From positions 3,092-67,091 of the forward strand of contig CAYTWE010000004.1 of assembly GCA_964440985.1 (NCBI GenBank): a stretch of DNA of 64,000 nucleotides, given 5' to 3'. The notes beneath the pieces are model-generated. The model did not search any database, was not told where the DNA came from, and saw nothing but the letters and a program-made list of their open reading frames with translations. A program made the translations under genes and the position numbers. This DNA is from an uncultured Lentisphaeraceae bacterium. Lineage in GTDB: Bacteria; Verrucomicrobiota; Kiritimatiellia; RFP12; UBA1067. Position 1 is the stretch's first letter, and each line of letters begins with the position of its first letter. Shown here piece after piece: positions 11,874-46,818 of the stretch.

Positions 11874-11988
11874 CCTTGCAAAAAGCCTGAGGCTCCCCCA
11901 TTTCTTTTTCTTGGCGGACGAGGTGGCTGTCTGCGTCTTTGTGTTCTCTGTGTTCTTTGTTGTTTCACGAGAGAGAGTGTGTGGAGAG

Positions 11989-12027
11989 TGGGGGGTGGGG
12001 GTGGGCTTGGTCGCAAACCCACCCCCG
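11989..12027 (-). terminator. GC-rich perfect hairpin (9-bp stem, no U-tract) downstream of the lipoprotein gene; possibly a non-canonical terminator.
   Basis: Minus strand reads GGGGGTGGG-tttgcgaccaag-CCCACCCCC. There is no following T-run; it is embedded in a roughly 100-nt GT/CA-rich low-complexity tract. Confidence 0.3.
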
Positions 12028-12058: not shown

Positions 12059-12622
12059 TCAAATCAGACCGGGCAACAGCCAGCGGAACCAAGGACGCCG
12101 CTTCGCCGAAATGCCAACAGGCTTGCCTTTGTCACTTGTTAACGTCTCCCATGGCTTAATGCGAATCACCTGAACATCCTTGGGAAGAACGACCGGCTTA
12201 TCCTGGATCATGTTCACGCTCTTCATGTTCGCCGGGAAGCCGGTGGCTTCGCATTCGACCTCCTTGTAGAAGAAGTAGTCGCTCACCTTGTAGCGGTAAA
12301 GCGTACCCATGAGCGCATCTGCCTTCGCGTTCTCCAGCGCGTCATATGTGGCCGACGCCTTGGCTGCATGGATGCCCCAGTTGACATCAGGCGAAGGCAC
12401 GGGTGCAGACCTGCCATCGGAGGAGGCGAAAATCCAGAACCAGCAGGAGGATGTTCCCGTCCCCTTCACGCGCTCGTTCCTGATTGTGTAGTCGATGTAG
12501 TACGGATTGCAGCTTCCGTCCGACATCGTCGGCGCAAGTTGCGTATCGCGTTCAACATGATAGGATGTGCTGCATCCCGCCATCAGCAAGGCCGCACCGG
12601 CAACCATCATCATCTGTTTCAT
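12059..12622 (-). CDS. Hypothetical lipoprotein.
   Basis: Signal peptide with lipobox (MKQMMMVAGAALLMAGCS) and a GGAG RBS. No recognisable domain. Confidence 0.6.
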   Translation of the reverse strand: MKQMMMVAGAALLMAGCSTSYHVERDTQLAPTMSDGSCNPYYIDYTIRNERVKGTGTSSCWFWIFASSDGRSAPVPSPDVNWGIHAAKASATYDALENAKADALMGTLYRYKVSDYFFYKEVECEATGFPANMKSVNMIQDKPVVLPKDVQVIRIKPWETLTSDKGKPVGISAKRRPWFRWLLPGLI

Positions 12623-12698
12623 GATTTTCAGCTCCTTTGTTTATTGTTCATGTCTCGATTGACATCTCCAGTCAGACACAAGAGACATCACACCGCAA

Positions 12699-13271
12699 AT
12701 GTCAATTAAGATATCATTTTTTTTTTATTGTCAATCCCCCCCCCCCCCCCACACACACACACACACACACACCACCGCCACCACTGTGGATTGGGTCATT
12801 CCCCTGATCTCTGATGGCATCGACAGGACGGCGCTTCCCTTCGCAAACCGCGCCCCGCACGCGGCCGTTCCGCAGTTCGCGCCCAATGCCGCCGTCACTG
12901 TGACACGCAACAAGGGCAAGTCCCGCCACGGAAAGGATGTCGCACCGGTCTCAGTCTCCTTCCCGAACATCGCCGCCGCAGACCAGGCGGACAAGGCCGT
13001 GCGGCCTTTCGACTACGAGGTCACGGTCGAGGCAAAGGAGTGCGACTTCGATAAGACGTGGATGGTCAAGCGCGTCTATTCACCAGGCTTCTACCGTGGC
13101 GCGAAGAAAGACGAGCCGACAGCAACGTGCGTGTTTGCGGCGGAAGAACTGCCACGCGGCAACGGACATGAACCCATCGCGCGCGACCGCACGTTCCGAT
13201 TCGCCGTCCGTCCCGCCAACTGCTTCGGCGCATTGGGCCGCCCCATCCGGTCGGACTGGATGGTCGGATGA
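12699..13271 (+). CDS. Hypothetical ORF whose 5' end spans the T10, C15 and (AC)11 tracts (the only substantial plus-strand ORF here); coding status uncertain.
   Basis: 190-codon ORF with plausible amino-acid composition in its 3' two-thirds. There is no RBS or signal peptide. The repeats encode FFFY, PPPP and HTHTHT, so tract-length changes would shift the frame. Confidence 0.25.
   Translation: MSIKISFFFYCQSPPPPHTHTHTHTTATTVDWVIPLISDGIDRTALPFANRAPHAAVPQFAPNAAVTVTRNKGKSRHGKDVAPVSVSFPNIAAADQADKAVRPFDYEVTVEAKECDFDKTWMVKRVYSPGFYRGAKKDEPTATCVFAAEELPRGNGHEPIARDRTFRFAVRPANCFGALGRPIRSDWMVG
12700..12772 (-). promoter_or_regulatory. Promoter of the lipoprotein gene with an A10 homopolymer inside the -35/-10 spacer, flanked upstream by G15 and (GT)11 tracts; candidate phase-variable promoter.
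   Basis: On the minus strand the order is (GT)11, G15, A, TTGACA (reverse complement of 12729-12734), the 15-nt spacer AT-A10-TGA, then TATCTT (reverse complement of 12708-12713). TGA immediately precedes the -10, so it is an extended -10. The plus strand shows T10 at 12717-12726, C15 at 12736-12750 and (AC)11 at 12751-12772. Confidence 0.5.
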
Positions 13272-42801: not shown

Positions 42802-43446
42802 CTATTTGACCGTGATCATAAACGCCCGACGTACGCCAACGGACATGGAAAAAGGCTTGCCGTCCACGACGGCGGTGAGCAGATCGCCTTCGCCGGAGAG
42901 TGCCAGCGTCTGCCAGCCGGGTGCGTCCATCGTCGGAGGAAGCTCTTCGCCTCCGAATGTCACGTTTGATACGCTTTCAGGCAGCAGAACGACCGGATGC
43001 CTGACTGATGCCCGTGACCAATGCCCGCGTCGTGCCTCGTCCTTGACGCAGACCGAATCGCCGACCCCTGTTCCCACGACAAGCCCCAGCGATGCGGATA
43101 CCGCCGATACCTCAGTTCCTTCTGCATCCTGATATGACACAGAGATGGTGATTATGCGTTCGCCTGTGGCATCGGACGGAAGCGAGAACGGAACAGAAAC
43201 TGAATCCGCCGTCACGTCGGAACTGGTCGCAACAGTTCTCCCGTCAACGCTGACGACGGCGCTGACGGCGCCAGTCGGCCAATCAAGCGCAACATCAGAC
43301 GATGCGGCGGTCACAGTCTTCCACGACAGCGACTCCGCCGGATTGACGCAGATCAGCGCGTTGGTTGAGGTGGCCCCGGATGCTCCAGCCACGGCGCACA
43401 GGGCAACTGCCACAGACGCACATAAAGTTCCTGCAATGTTATTCAT
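42802..43446 (-). CDS. Secreted Ser/Thr/Val-rich hypothetical protein, first gene of the FGE-domain operon.
   Basis: Signal peptide MNNIAGTLCASVAVALCAVAGASG, GGAGAAG RBS, low-complexity S/T/V-rich body. Its stop overlaps the next start. Confidence 0.5.
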   Translation of the reverse strand: MNNIAGTLCASVAVALCAVAGASGATSTNALICVNPAESLSWKTVTAASSDVALDWPTGAVSAVVSVDGRTVATSSDVTADSVSVPFSLPSDATGERIITISVSYQDAEGTEVSAVSASLGLVVGTGVGDSVCVKDEARRGHWSRASVRHPVVLLPESVSNVTFGGEELPPTMDAPGWQTLALSGEGDLLTAVVDGKPFSMSVGVRRAFMITVK

Positions 43447-43493: not shown

Positions 43494-43521
43494 ATTATAC
43501 ATTTTTTTTTTCTACGGTCAA
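43494..43521 (-). promoter_or_regulatory. Near-consensus sigma70 promoter TTGACC-16 nt-TATAAT whose spacer contains an A10 tract; candidate phase-variable promoter of the secreted-protein/FGE-domain operon.
   Basis: Reverse complement of 43516-43521 is TTGACC; the spacer is GTAG-A10-TG; reverse complement of 43494-43499 is TATAAT. The plus strand shows T10 at 43502-43511. Confidence 0.55.
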
Positions 43522-46712: not shown

Positions 46713-46800
46713 TGGCGGAGGGGGGGGGATTCGAACCCCCGGTGGACTTGCGCCCACACAACCTTTCCAAGGTTGCACCATCGACCACTCGGACACCCCT
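46713..46800 (-). tRNA. tRNA-Ser (anticodon GGA), 88 nt with a long variable arm and an encoded CCA.
   Basis: The reverse complement is GGAGGGGTGTCCGAGTGGTCGATGGTGCAACCTTGGAAAGGTTG...GGGGGTTCGAATCCCCCCCTCCGCCA. The anticodon loop is uuGGAaa. It has a type-II tRNA cloverleaf. Confidence 0.85.
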
Positions 46801-46818
46801 CCAAACGAAAAACGGCAC

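What the first reader, a model, noticed from the sequence alone, without database searches (positions are those of the whole stretch)
12690..12790. Three hypermutable tracts (A10, G15 and (GT)11 on the transcribed strand) built into a lipoprotein promoter
On the minus strand the order is (GT)11, G15, A, TTGACA, AT-A10-TGA, TATCTT. The A10 tract lies precisely in the spacer between a consensus -35 (TTGACA) and an extended -10 (TGaTATCTT). The spacer is now 15 nt, so gaining 1 or 2 A's brings it toward the optimal 17 nt and losing A's pushes it further away. The G15 and dinucleotide tracts sit where an UP element or activator site would be. This is the classic architecture of slipped-strand contingency promoters (fimbrial and opacity-gene-type switches in Neisseria and Haemophilus). 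The controlled gene (12059..12622) is a lipoprotein, i.e. surface-exposed. I am not aware of such loci being described in PVC-group bacteria.
Basis: partly seen in the sequence, partly recalled or inferred. Interest (0 to 1): 0.8.

Follow-up and report, generated by a model that had tools for sequence, protein, structure and literature searches.

The report
Repeat-laden lipoprotein promoter in Lentisphaeraceae
The three repeat tracts are real and sit on a genuine, conserved lipoprotein promoter of a gut Lentisphaeraceae bacterium. The A10 run looks like a fixed promoter part shared by several secreted-protein genes, while the GT and G runs are a young, variable microsatellite at a deletion scar.

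Summary
On the minus strand the order is (GT)11 12751-12772, G15 12736-12750, TTGACA 12729-12734, A10 12717-12726, TGa-TATCTT 12708-12716, with a 15-nt spacer. Contigs from nine other samples corroborate parts of it.

The promoter call is well supported. 'A10-TGn-TAnnnT' is the only invariant upstream block among orthologues with 72-95% protein identity.

The proposed switch is only partly supported:
- A10 is invariant in all nine A10-bearing sequences of this gene. Its spacer is fixed at 15 nt in two lineages and at 19 nt in three.
- The same A9-11 run recurs in two unrelated promoters of secreted proteins. One is in this window at 43502-43511, where 13 of 15 sequences have A10, one A9 and one A11.
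- (GT)n is truly hypermutable: 9, 10 or 11 units in strains with at most 4 SNPs in 4-5.6 kb of flank.
- (GT)n and G15 are lineage-specific. The sister species has an interrupted version.
- These two tracts abut a 1.2-kb deletion that truncated the divergent metallophosphoesterase gene.

Best reading: a conserved A-tract extended -10 promoter, at most a slippage rheostat, next to a young microsatellite. A true contingency locus is not excluded (about 0.3). Read-level data are needed.

The parts
12751..12772 (-). (GT)11 dinucleotide tract, about -53 to -74 relative to the inferred transcription start
   Evidence: Length-polymorphic: (GT)10 in L020 and (GT)9 in L023, each followed by a G run, in strains 2-4 SNPs from the window. 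The sister species L036 has only (GT)4 here.
12736..12750 (-). G15 homopolymer, ending 1 nt upstream of the -35 hexamer
   Evidence: At least 10 and at least 13 Gs are seen at the ends of L020 and L023. Every short-read contig breaks in or next to it. L036 has the interrupted GGTGGGAGGGTGAGGGGGGAGGC instead.
12729..12734 (-). -35-like hexamer TTGACA
   Evidence: CATTGACA is conserved in L036, L003 and L038; L015 has TTGCAA. It lies 15 nt from the -10 here and in L036, and 19 nt in L003, L038 and L015.
12717..12726 (-). A10 run in the promoter spacer, directly 5' of the TG of the extended -10
   Evidence: A10 in the window, L001, L002, L036, L003-5 and L015/16; A11 in L038. These are invariant columns in alignment A2.
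12708..12716 (-). Extended -10 element: TGa + TATCTT
   Evidence: TGn + TAnnnT is conserved in all orthologues (TGgTACAAT, TGgTATGAT, TGcTATTAT) and in 45%-identical homologues that lack an A run (TGaTATAAT, TGcTATACT).
12623..12701 (-). Inferred 5' UTR of about 79 nt, with Shine-Dalgarno AAGGAG at 12632-12637 and an ATTGACAT / ATGTCAAT inverted repeat
   Evidence: I5. The predicted hairpin is not better than shuffles (z -0.54) and covariation is weak. The transcription start is inferred, not mapped.
12059..12622 (-). Lipoprotein gene (187 aa, lipobox LLMAGC), a small clade-restricted family
   Evidence: No Pfam or NCBIfam match. Only 6 + 4 homologues found. dN/dS 0.09 against L036. The AlphaFold model is unusable.
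11997..12026 (-). 13-bp G/C-rich hairpin after the stop codon. Homology with strain L002 ends in its loop.
   Evidence: I9.
11893..12008 (-). Low-complexity C/CA/CT-rich filler at a second deletion junction. It includes an inverted, 76% complementary copy (11977-12001) of the GT/G motif.
   Evidence: I1; the motif occurs only at these two places in the window. Confirmed by L001. Absent from L002 and L036, which carry a 3.6-kb insert here instead.
12789..13271 (+). 5'-truncated remnant (C-terminal 161 codons) of a 493-aa Tat-signal metallophosphoesterase gene. It is not an intact divergent gene.
   Evidence: Synteny and the full-length L036 gene. phmmer gave 205 hits, with the query aligning to residues about 330-490 of proteins of about 480 aa. 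Coding-type GC3. dN/dS 0.20.
43494..43521 (-). Sister promoter of the same class, TTGACC-GTAG-A10-TG-TATAAT (16-nt spacer), upstream of a secreted 214-aa protein (42802-43446)
   Evidence: A10 in 13 of 15 sequences, A9 in L035, and A11 in L045 with 0 SNPs in 2.2 kb against L043. The 62%-identical orthologue has a canonical TTGCAA-17-TGtTATACT with no A run.

Best explanation
This is the genuine promoter of a small, clade-restricted Lentisphaeraceae lipoprotein gene. It is a sigma-70-type extended -10 promoter (TGnTAnnnT) and belongs to a local class of promoters. These carry an uninterrupted A9-11 run directly 5' of the TG and so far all drive signal-peptide proteins.

The A run is a conserved part of the promoter. 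Its length and the total spacer are held constant within lineages. It most likely acts as a structural A-tract or spacer element. Because it is a homopolymer it occasionally slips by one base, as seen at the sister locus. This could tune expression like a rheostat, but it does not behave as an ON/OFF switch at this gene.

The (GT)n(G)n block is a different thing. It is a young, lineage-specific compound microsatellite that grew out of an interrupted G/GT-rich stretch. It lies exactly at the junction of a roughly 1.2-kb deletion that removed the 5' two-thirds of the divergent metallophosphoesterase gene. It is truly hypermutable. However, it lies upstream of the -35 with nothing conserved beyond it, so its length changes are most likely neutral or only weakly modulatory.

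Shown: the anatomy, conservation, polymorphism, deletion and pseudogene status.
Inferred: use of the promoter, the transcription start, and any effect of any tract on transcription.
For: Promoter conservation:
- window and L036: TTGACA-AT-A10-TGA-TATCTT
- L003: TTGACA-GGTGAG-A10-TGG-TACAAT
- L038: TTGACA-GAGGT-A11-TGG-TATGAT
- L015: TTGCAA-TCAGGG-A10-TGC-TATTAT
- Homologues at 45% identity keep TGnTATAAT or TGnTATACT but have no A run.

The A run is a class feature:
- A second A10 promoter lies in this window.
- A third (A9) lies upstream of a 1224-aa secreted protein in L015.
- No A6-A8 intermediates occur. Runs are 9-11 or absent.
- Canonical 17-nt-spacer promoters also exist in this clade.

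A-run stability and rare slippage:
- 9 of 9 sequences at this gene have A10.
- At the sister locus 13 of 15 have A10, one A9 and one A11, in otherwise identical DNA.

(GT)n polymorphism: 11, 10 and 9 units with 0-4 SNPs in 4.3-5.6 kb of flank.

Lineage-specificity and the deletion scar:
- L036 is collinear with the window except for two inserts, 1.17 kb and 3.6 kb, that flank the lipoprotein cassette.
- L036 has GTGTGTGTGGTGGGAGGGTGAGGGGGGAGGC where the window has (GT)8G15.
- The window's + strand ORF is the C-terminal third of a 493-aa Metallophos protein.
Against: - Perfect preservation of an uninterrupted A run across diverged lineages is also what second-order selection for mutability would produce.
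- All three A-run promoters drive secreted or lipoproteins, the typical cargo of contingency loci.
- A strong modal length with about 10% +/-1 alleles matches accepted phase-variable tracts. Akkermansia Amuc_1413 has 32 genomes with 9G against 4 with 8G or 10G (PMC13055324).
- Spacers of 15 and 19 nt are both poor for a sigma-70 promoter. How a fixed promoter works at those spacings is unexplained unless the extended -10 makes the -35 dispensable.
- Consensus contigs cannot reveal minority alleles within a population.
- Every short-read assembly breaks at the G/GT block. This could reflect within-sample length heterogeneity. The end of L020 is exactly where a (GT)10 / (GT)11-or-longer mixture would break a k=31 graph.
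Confidence: 0.5

Rival explanations
1. True contingency or rheostat promoter. Slipped-strand gain or loss of A's changes the -35/-10 spacing (15 nt now, 17 nt optimal) and switches or tunes lipoprotein expression. The A9-11 promoters of this clade together form a small 'phasome' of secreted-protein genes.
For: - The A10 run lies exactly in the spacer.
- The run stays uninterrupted across lineages while the flanks diverge.
- +/-1 alleles (A9, A11) occur at the sister promoter in otherwise identical DNA.
- All three A-run promoters drive signal-peptide proteins.
- The allele-frequency pattern resembles Akkermansia Amuc_1413 (PMC13055324).
- The architecture matches the M. hyorhinis vlp polyA promoters (PMC10502178, citing Citti and Wise 1995).
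Against: - No length variation at this gene in 9 sequences from 4 lineages.
- Spacers of exactly 19 nt (three diverged lineages) and exactly 15 nt (two lineages) are conserved. That is not expected for an arbitrary OFF state, which should drift.
- The window sits two steps from the 17-nt optimum in every sample.
- The conserved TGn extended -10 may make the -35 spacing unimportant.
Confidence: 0.3
2. The G run and/or the (GT)n tract is the functional variable element. Its length alters promoter strength through DNA structure (G-quadruplex or Z-DNA) or polymerase alpha-subunit contacts upstream of -35. Analogues are polyG upstream of Treponema pallidum tpr genes and polyC in Bordetella fim promoters (both from my own knowledge).
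For: - (GT)n is demonstrably hypermutable.
- The G run ends 1 nt from the -35.
- All assemblies break here.
- G15 is just long enough for an intramolecular G-quadruplex (inference).
Against: - The tracts are absent from orthologous promoters, and the closest relative has an interrupted, non-slippery version.
- Upstream DNA is a truncated gene remnant left by a deletion, so no conserved activator site exists to be re-phased.
- The position does not alter core-promoter geometry.
Confidence: 0.1
3. Translational phase variation of a + strand ORF. ATG 12699 currently reads in frame through T10, C15 and (CA)11 (MSIKISFFFYCQSPPPPPHTHTHTHT...) into the phosphoesterase remnant, so tract lengths would gate its translation.
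For: The 190-codon frame 12699-13271 is open. The remnant has coding-like GC3 and dN/dS of 0.20.
Against: - There is no Shine-Dalgarno sequence before 12699 or 12786.
- The N-terminus is low-complexity and lacks a signal peptide, whereas the ancestral protein is Tat-exported with its catalytic Metallophos domain in the deleted part.
- The low dN/dS is explained by a recent deletion.
Confidence: 0.03
4. Assembly or sequencing artefact: a chimeric join through low-complexity k-mers or polyG noise from two-colour chemistry.
For: - No independent contig spans the G run.
- One contig (L019) runs from (GT)11 straight into a Nextera adapter.
- A JGI pattern scan found no spanning contig.
Against: - The sister species has the esterase block, a G/GT-rich stretch and the A10 promoter in the same order and orientation on one contig.
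- Seven contigs from other samples enter the same (GT)n-G run from one side.
- Two contigs start 3 nt from the G run on the other side.
Confidence: 0.03

Closest known systems
Mycoplasma hyorhinis vlp lipoprotein promoters (polyA tract between -35 and -10; Citti and Wise 1995, as summarised in PMC10502178)
   Same: A homopolymeric A run lies inside the promoter of lipoprotein genes. Several genes in one genome share the design. Slippage would change spacing.
   Different: - The vlp tracts are longer (about 17-20 A, from my own knowledge).
- They vary freely between clones, and ON/OFF switching has been proven.
- Here the run is about 10 A, essentially fixed at this gene, abuts a TGn extended -10, and switching is untested.
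Neisseria meningitidis porA / opc / fetA promoters with polyG or polyC in the spacer (own knowledge)
   Same: A homopolymer lies between -35 and -10. It acts as a rheostat with a strong modal length and +/-1 variants, and controls outer-membrane proteins.
   Different: - Those are G/C tracts in a species with a documented phasome.
- Tract lengths differ widely between strains.
- Here total spacers of 15 and 19 nt are conserved across lineages.
Repeats upstream of the core promoter: Treponema pallidum tpr polyG, Bordetella pertussis fim polyC, N. meningitidis nadA (TAAA)n (own knowledge)
   Same: Variable repeats lie just upstream of, or overlapping, the -35 region, as do G15 and (GT)11 here.
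   Different: - Those repeats are conserved features of the loci and re-phase a known activator or repressor site.
- Here the tracts are lineage-specific, sit on a deletion junction, and have only pseudogene DNA upstream.
SSR phase variation in other PVC bacteria: Chlamydia pmpG polyG (10.1101/506121) and Akkermansia muciniphila Amuc_1413 G9 (PMC13055324)
   Same: The same superphylum. Homopolymer slippage affects envelope or surface functions. The distribution is modal with about 10% +/-1 alleles across genomes.
   Different: - Both are coding-region frameshift switches, not promoter tracts.
- My searches found no report for Lentisphaerota.
A/T-rich spacer element of Chlamydia sigma-66 promoters (Tan, Gaal, Gourse and Engel 1998, J Bacteriol 180:2359; cited in PMC5066175; content recalled, paper not held)
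   Same: A PVC-lineage primary-sigma promoter in which A/T-rich spacer sequence just upstream of the -10 contributes to activity. This is a structural, non-switching role for the spacer.
   Different: - That element is a general A/T-rich stretch in an AT-rich genome.
- Here it is a perfect A9-11 run in a 59% GC genome, limited to a few promoters.
- No functional data exist.

Membership tests
SSR-mediated phase-variable (contingency) promoter | Perfect repeat tract long enough to slip (homopolymer of about 8 or more, dinucleotide of about 5 or more units) | tested here: met
   A10, G15 and (GT)11 are all uninterrupted.
SSR-mediated phase-variable (contingency) promoter | Tract placed where its length changes promoter geometry (between -35 and -10, or between an activator site and the core promoter) | tested here: inconclusive
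   A10 lies between conserved -35-like and extended -10 elements, but promoter use is inferred and the TGn motif may make the -35 dispensable. G15 and (GT)11 lie upstream of -35 with no conserved site beyond them.
SSR-mediated phase-variable (contingency) promoter | Tract length varies among closely related strains or populations: (GT)n | tested here: met
   11, 10 and 9 units in the window, L020 and L023, with 2-4 SNPs in 4.3-5.6 kb of flank.
SSR-mediated phase-variable (contingency) promoter | Tract length varies among closely related strains or populations: A run at this locus | tested here: not met
   A10 in the window, L001, L002, L036, L003-5 and L015/16. L038 has A11 by substitution, with total spacer unchanged. 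There are only 3 sequences from the window's own species, and all are consensus sequences.
SSR-mediated phase-variable (contingency) promoter | Tract length varies among closely related strains or populations: A run at the sister promoter (43502-43511) | tested here: met
   13 sequences with A10, 1 with A9, 1 with A11. The A11 allele has 0 SNPs in 2.2 kb against an A10 allele. The frequency is low.
SSR-mediated phase-variable (contingency) promoter | Tract length varies: G run | tested here: inconclusive
   Only lower bounds (at least 10, at least 13) from contig ends, plus 15 in the window. All short-read contigs break there.
SSR-mediated phase-variable (contingency) promoter | Reversible, high-frequency switching within a clonal population, with expression tracking tract length | not testable with these tools
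   No reads, cultures or transcript data are available.
Extended -10 (TGn) sigma-70-type promoter | TG at -15/-14, one base, then a TAnnnT hexamer, at a plausible distance upstream of the gene | tested here: met
   TGaTATCTT here. TGgTACAAT, TGgTATGAT, TGcTATTAT, TGaTATAAT and TGcTATACT in orthologues and homologues.
Extended -10 (TGn) sigma-70-type promoter | Transcription starts about 7 nt downstream of the -10 | not testable with these tools
   No 5'-end data are available.
Invertible or mobile cassette bounded by inverted repeats | Specific inverted repeats with an associated recombinase, and inversion that changes the promoter-gene relationship | tested here: not met
   The only inverted repeat is the 76% low-complexity pair 11977-12001 / 12736-12760. 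It encloses both promoter and gene, so inversion would change nothing. Neighbouring genes are an esterase, a kinase-like protein and unknowns, with no recombinase.

The most novel reading that the evidence does not exclude
Gut Lentisphaeraceae possess a small phasome of secreted-protein and lipoprotein genes. Their extended -10 promoters carry an A9-11 run that slips to retune the -35/-10 spacing. This locus additionally carries a hypermutable (GT)n(G)n block. These would be the first promoter-located contingency loci in the PVC superphylum, and the first of any kind in Lentisphaerota.
Probability: 0.25. Interest if true: 0.65.

Novelty: new member of a known kind. Interest (0 to 1): 0.45.

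Why it matters
Lentisphaeraceae are uncultured or barely cultured gut glycan degraders, and nothing is known about how they regulate genes.

If the A-run promoters slip to tune expression, stochastic surface variation would extend to a commensal PVC lineage. So far only coding-tract switches are known in this superphylum, in Chlamydia and Akkermansia.

If the A run is instead a fixed element, it defines a recognisable promoter class (A9-11 + TGnTAnnnT) for envelope proteins. That class could be used to annotate promoters in this phylum.

Either way, the locus gives a concrete, cheap test: count tract-length alleles in existing read sets.

The (GT)n(G)n block also shows a bacterial microsatellite being born at a deletion junction. 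In addition it explains why short-read assemblies of these genomes fragment at this point.

Tried and rejected
1. Function of the lipoprotein.
- Pfam and NCBIfam gave nothing.
- An AlphaFold model from the 7-sequence alignment was unusable (pLDDT 34), so no fold search was run.

2. The + strand ORF 12786-13271 as an intact divergent gene sharing the promoter region. Rejected.
- A word-based search found nothing.
- The exhaustive phmmer search and the synteny with L036 show it is the C-terminal third of a roughly 490-aa metallophosphoesterase.

3. A spanning contig with other tract lengths. A gapped-pattern scan of JGI metagenomes gave 0 hits. All Logan contigs stop in the tracts.

4. An RNA element in the 5' UTR.
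- Rfam gave only a chance miRNA hit.
- The hairpin is no better than shuffles.
- Covariation is weak.

5. An inverted-repeat-bounded invertible or mobile cassette. The repeat is low-complexity, 76% complementary and encloses both promoter and gene. Rejected as a switch, although both deletion junctions coincide with these motifs.

6. Alternative -35 or -10 registers giving a 17-nt spacer in the window or in the 19-nt orthologues. None scores above 1-3 of 6 by manual inspection.

7. Using contig break points to infer within-sample heterogeneity. Only the end of L020 fits a (GT)10 / (GT)11-or-longer mixture. The others fit no simple model and may reflect loss of coverage. L019 ends in a Nextera adapter.

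8. dN/dS of the remnant (0.20, against 0.14 and 0.09 for its neighbours). Too little divergence since the deletion to be informative.

9. Tan et al. 1998, on the Chlamydia spacer A/T element, is not held.
Full report
**1. What is in the sequence**

Read on the minus strand, window 12772-12708 is (GT)11, G15, A, TTGACA, AT, A10, TGA, TATCTT. The coordinates are:
- (GT)11: 12751-12772
- G15: 12736-12750
- TTGACA: 12729-12734
- A10: 12717-12726
- TGA: 12714-12716
- TATCTT: 12708-12713

About 79 nt further on lie a Shine-Dalgarno AAGGAG (12632-12637) and the ATG of a 187-aa ORF (12059-12622). Its N-terminus ends in the lipobox LLMAGC.

Chance is excluded. From base or first-order Markov frequencies, 64 kb should hold 0.015-0.05 A10/T10 runs, 2e-4 to 3e-3 G15/C15 runs and about 1e-8 (GT)11 tracts. 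Only two other runs of 9 or more occur in the window. One is a second A10 (43502-43511). The other is a G9 inside a tRNA-Ser gene.

**2. Organism and context**

The window is chromosomal DNA. It carries CarB, DnaB, PolA, GH20 and similar genes.

The lipoprotein belongs to a very small family:
- 6 homologues among 5.8 billion clustered proteins.
- 3 loci among GTDB species representatives.
- 4 distant loci in JGI metagenomes.
- No Pfam or NCBIfam match.
- A structure prediction failed (pLDDT 34).

**3. The promoter is real and conserved**

I retrieved the upstream regions of orthologues from other samples and species and aligned them. The flanks are essentially unalignable. One block is invariant: a TTGACA or TTGCAA hexamer, a few bases, an uninterrupted A run, then TG-n-TAnnnT.

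| Lineage (protein identity) | -35 | Linker | A run | Extended -10 | Spacer |
|---|---|---|---|---|---|
| window and L036 (95%) | TTGACA | AT | A10 | TGA-TATCTT | 15 |
| L003-5 (78%) | TTGACA | GGTGAG | A10 | TGG-TACAAT | 19 |
| L038 (86%) | TTGACA | GAGGT | A11 | TGG-TATGAT | 19 |
| L015/16 (77%) | TTGCAA | TCAGGG | A10 | TGC-TATTAT | 19 |

Homologues at 45% identity keep a TGnTATAAT or TGnTATACT extended -10 but have no A run. One of them has a textbook TTGCAA-17-TGaTATAAT. Use of the promoter and the transcription start remain inferred.

**4. The A run is a class feature and is nearly fixed in length**

The same design occurs at two unrelated genes:
- Window 43494-43521 reads TTGACC-GTAG-A10-TG-TATAAT, upstream of a secreted 214-aa protein.
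- L015 647-655 reads TTGCGG-AGGG-A9-GAA-TATAAT, upstream of a 1224-aa protein with a signal peptide.

Across all Lentisphaeraceae DNA fetched, promoter-context A runs are 9-11 long or absent. There are no A6-A8 intermediates.

At the lipoprotein gene, A10 is found in all nine A10-bearing sequences (window, L001, L002, L036, L003-5, L015/16). The A11 of L038 arises from a G-to-A substitution at the edge of the run and leaves the 19-nt spacer unchanged.

At the sister locus, 13 of 15 sequences have A10, one has A9 (L035) and one has A11 (L045). L045 is identical to an A10 allele over 2.2 kb. The 62%-identical orthologue of that gene again has a canonical 17-nt spacer and no A run.

So the run is intrinsically slippage-prone, with indels where SNP density is about 1e-3. 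It is nonetheless held at a strong mode.

Exact conservation of a 19-nt spacer in three diverged lineages, and of a 15-nt spacer in two, argues that these geometries are selected. An arbitrary OFF state would drift. Canonical 17-nt promoters exist in the same genomes, so the polymerase is not unusual in that respect. I cannot explain why the run is about one helical turn irrespective of total spacer length. A structural A-tract role next to the TG motif is the simplest reading. An A/T-rich spacer element is known for Chlamydia sigma-66 promoters (Tan et al. 1998; recalled, paper not held).

**5. The (GT)n(G)n block is young, hypermutable and sits on a deletion scar**

Seven contigs from other samples carry the neighbouring esterase, and all run into this block and stop there:
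- Two read through the GT tract into the G run: (GT)10 followed by at least 10 Gs (L020), and (GT)9 followed by at least 13 Gs (L023). The window has (GT)11 G15.
- Their flanks differ from the window by 4 SNPs in 5586 nt (L020) and 2 SNPs in 4256 nt (L023). The GT tract therefore mutates far faster than the background.

The sister-species contig L036 is collinear with the window:
- L036 1-4681 matches window 17476-12789.
- L036 5857-6545 matches window 12766-12078.
- L036 10191-12546 matches window 11892-9537.

L036 carries two extra segments. Segment X (1.17 kb) holds the first two-thirds of a 493-aa Tat-signal metallophosphoesterase gene. The window's + strand ORF 12789-13271 is the C-terminal remnant of that gene. 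An exhaustive phmmer search gave 205 hits, almost all aligning the ORF to residues about 330-490 of proteins of about 480 aa. The state in the window is therefore a deletion, and its junction is the tract.

In L036, the 31 nt preceding ATTGACAAT read GTGTGTGTGGTGGGAGGGTGAGGGGGGAGGC. The window has (GT)8G15 over the same 31 nt. More distant orthologues have nothing comparable next to the -35. The perfect tracts are thus a recent, lineage-specific purification or expansion of a G/GT-rich stretch. Upstream of them there is only pseudogene DNA and no conserved site whose distance they could modulate.

Segment Y (3.6 kb, two InlB-repeat / Ig-like secreted proteins) is missing downstream of the lipoprotein gene in the window and in L001. 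It is present in L036 and, at least its start, in L002 (99.7% identical over the cassette). That junction is filled by 116 nt of C/CA/CT-rich low-complexity sequence. This filler includes an inverted, 76% complementary copy of the GT/G motif. The lipoprotein cassette therefore sits in an indel hot spot bounded by G-rich low-complexity DNA.

**6. Is it an artefact?**

No contig independent of the window spans the G run. One contig (L019) runs from (GT)11 into a Nextera adapter. A pattern scan of JGI metagenomes found nothing.

Against an artefact, L036 shows the same order and orientation (esterase block, G/GT-rich stretch, A10 promoter) on one contig. Nine contigs from other samples also approach the block from both sides. 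The join is real. Only the exact length of the G run is uncertain.

Both lipoprotein-side contigs start at the same base (GACAAT, 12732). I cannot explain this by length heterogeneity in any tract.

**7. Mechanism**

My best-supported reading (confidence 0.5) has two parts:
- This is a conserved A-tract extended -10 promoter of a lipoprotein gene. The A run is a functional, length-constrained element. It slips rarely and could at most act as a rheostat.
- It is flanked by a young, truly hypermutable (GT)n(G)n microsatellite born at a deletion junction. Any effect of this block on transcription is probably small.

The rivals are:
It gains from the secreted-protein cargo of all three A-run promoters, from the uninterrupted runs, and from the +/-1 alleles. 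The allele frequency resembles the accepted Akkermansia Amuc_1413 G9 switch, with 32 genomes at 9G against 4 at 8G or 10G (PMC13055324). It loses from invariance at this gene and from the conserved 15-nt and 19-nt spacers.
- G/GT-length modulation of the promoter (0.1).
- Translational gating of a + strand ORF that currently reads in frame through all three tracts (0.03).
- An artefact (0.03).

**8. Comparison with known systems and novelty**

The architecture works like the polyA promoters of the M. hyorhinis vlp lipoprotein genes (PMC10502178) and the spacer homopolymers of Neisseria porA and opc (own knowledge). Membership in 'phase-variable promoter' is not established:
- The position criterion is met only by inference.
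- Among-strain variation is met for (GT)n and for the sister A10, but not for this A10.
- Switching is untestable here.

SSR phase variation is not new to PVC bacteria. It is described for Chlamydia pmpG polyG (10.1101/506121) and Akkermansia Amuc_1413 (PMC13055324), both coding tracts. I found nothing for Lentisphaerota and nothing promoter-located in PVC.

I rate the finding a new member of a known kind, of moderate interest (0.45). Counting tract-length alleles in the existing read sets would settle it.

Noticed in passing
window 43494-43521 (minus strand): A second promoter of the same design, TTGACC-GTAG-A10-TG-TATAAT, lies upstream of a secreted 214-aa protein (42802-43446). Across 15 sequences the run is A10 in 13, A9 in 1 and A11 in 1.
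   Followed up: yes
L015 620-660 (NCBI CAYLRN010000020.1): A third A-run promoter, TTGCGG-AGGG-A9-GAA-TATAAT, lies upstream of a 1224-aa signal-peptide protein with a weak InlB B-repeat hit. It is in the neighbourhood of the lipoprotein orthologue.
   Followed up: partly
window 12789-13271 (+): An intact-looking 161-codon ORF is in fact the C-terminal third of a Tat-exported metallophosphoesterase. The 5' 1.17 kb, present in sister species L036 (4199-5680), has been deleted. Gene callers would annotate the remnant as a hypothetical protein.
   Followed up: yes
window 11893-12008; L036 6546-10190; L002 725-2288: A 3.6-kb segment encoding two InlB-repeat / Ig-like secreted proteins is present or absent between near-identical strains. 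In the window it is replaced by 116 nt of C/CA/CT-rich filler of unknown origin. The filler contains an inverted copy of the GT/G motif.
   Followed up: partly
L015 5415-5420 and L036 6540-6560: The lipoprotein orthologue in L015/L016 has an in-frame TAG after codon 138. The L036 copy has lost its last codons, its terminator and part of the next promoter. The gene appears dispensable and decays in some lineages.
   Followed up: no
L001 and L002, position 1 (= window 12732): Two contigs from different samples start at exactly the same base (GACAAT), 3 nt short of the G run. No simple tract-length heterogeneity predicts this break point.
   Followed up: partly
L019 5609-5630: This Logan contig ends with an untrimmed Nextera adapter (CTGTCTCTTATACACATCT) directly after (GT)11. 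That suggests few reads cross the G run, so coverage is lost at this structure.
   Followed up: no
window 12650-12714 (minus strand 5' UTR): The motif ATTGACA(T) occurs three times: at the -35, around the inferred start, and inverted as ATGTCAAT in the 5' UTR. It could be an operator. The corresponding RNA hairpin is not significant.
   Followed up: partly
window 46713-46802 (-): A tRNA-Ser (GGA) gene contains the window's only other long G run (G9, 46720-46728).
   Followed up: yes
L038 (CAYLUV010000278.1): A 1.4-kb contig carrying an 86%-identical lipoprotein orthologue with the Lentisphaeraceae-type promoter is binned in a 'Lachnospiraceae' MAG. It is probably a mis-binned contig.
   Followed up: no
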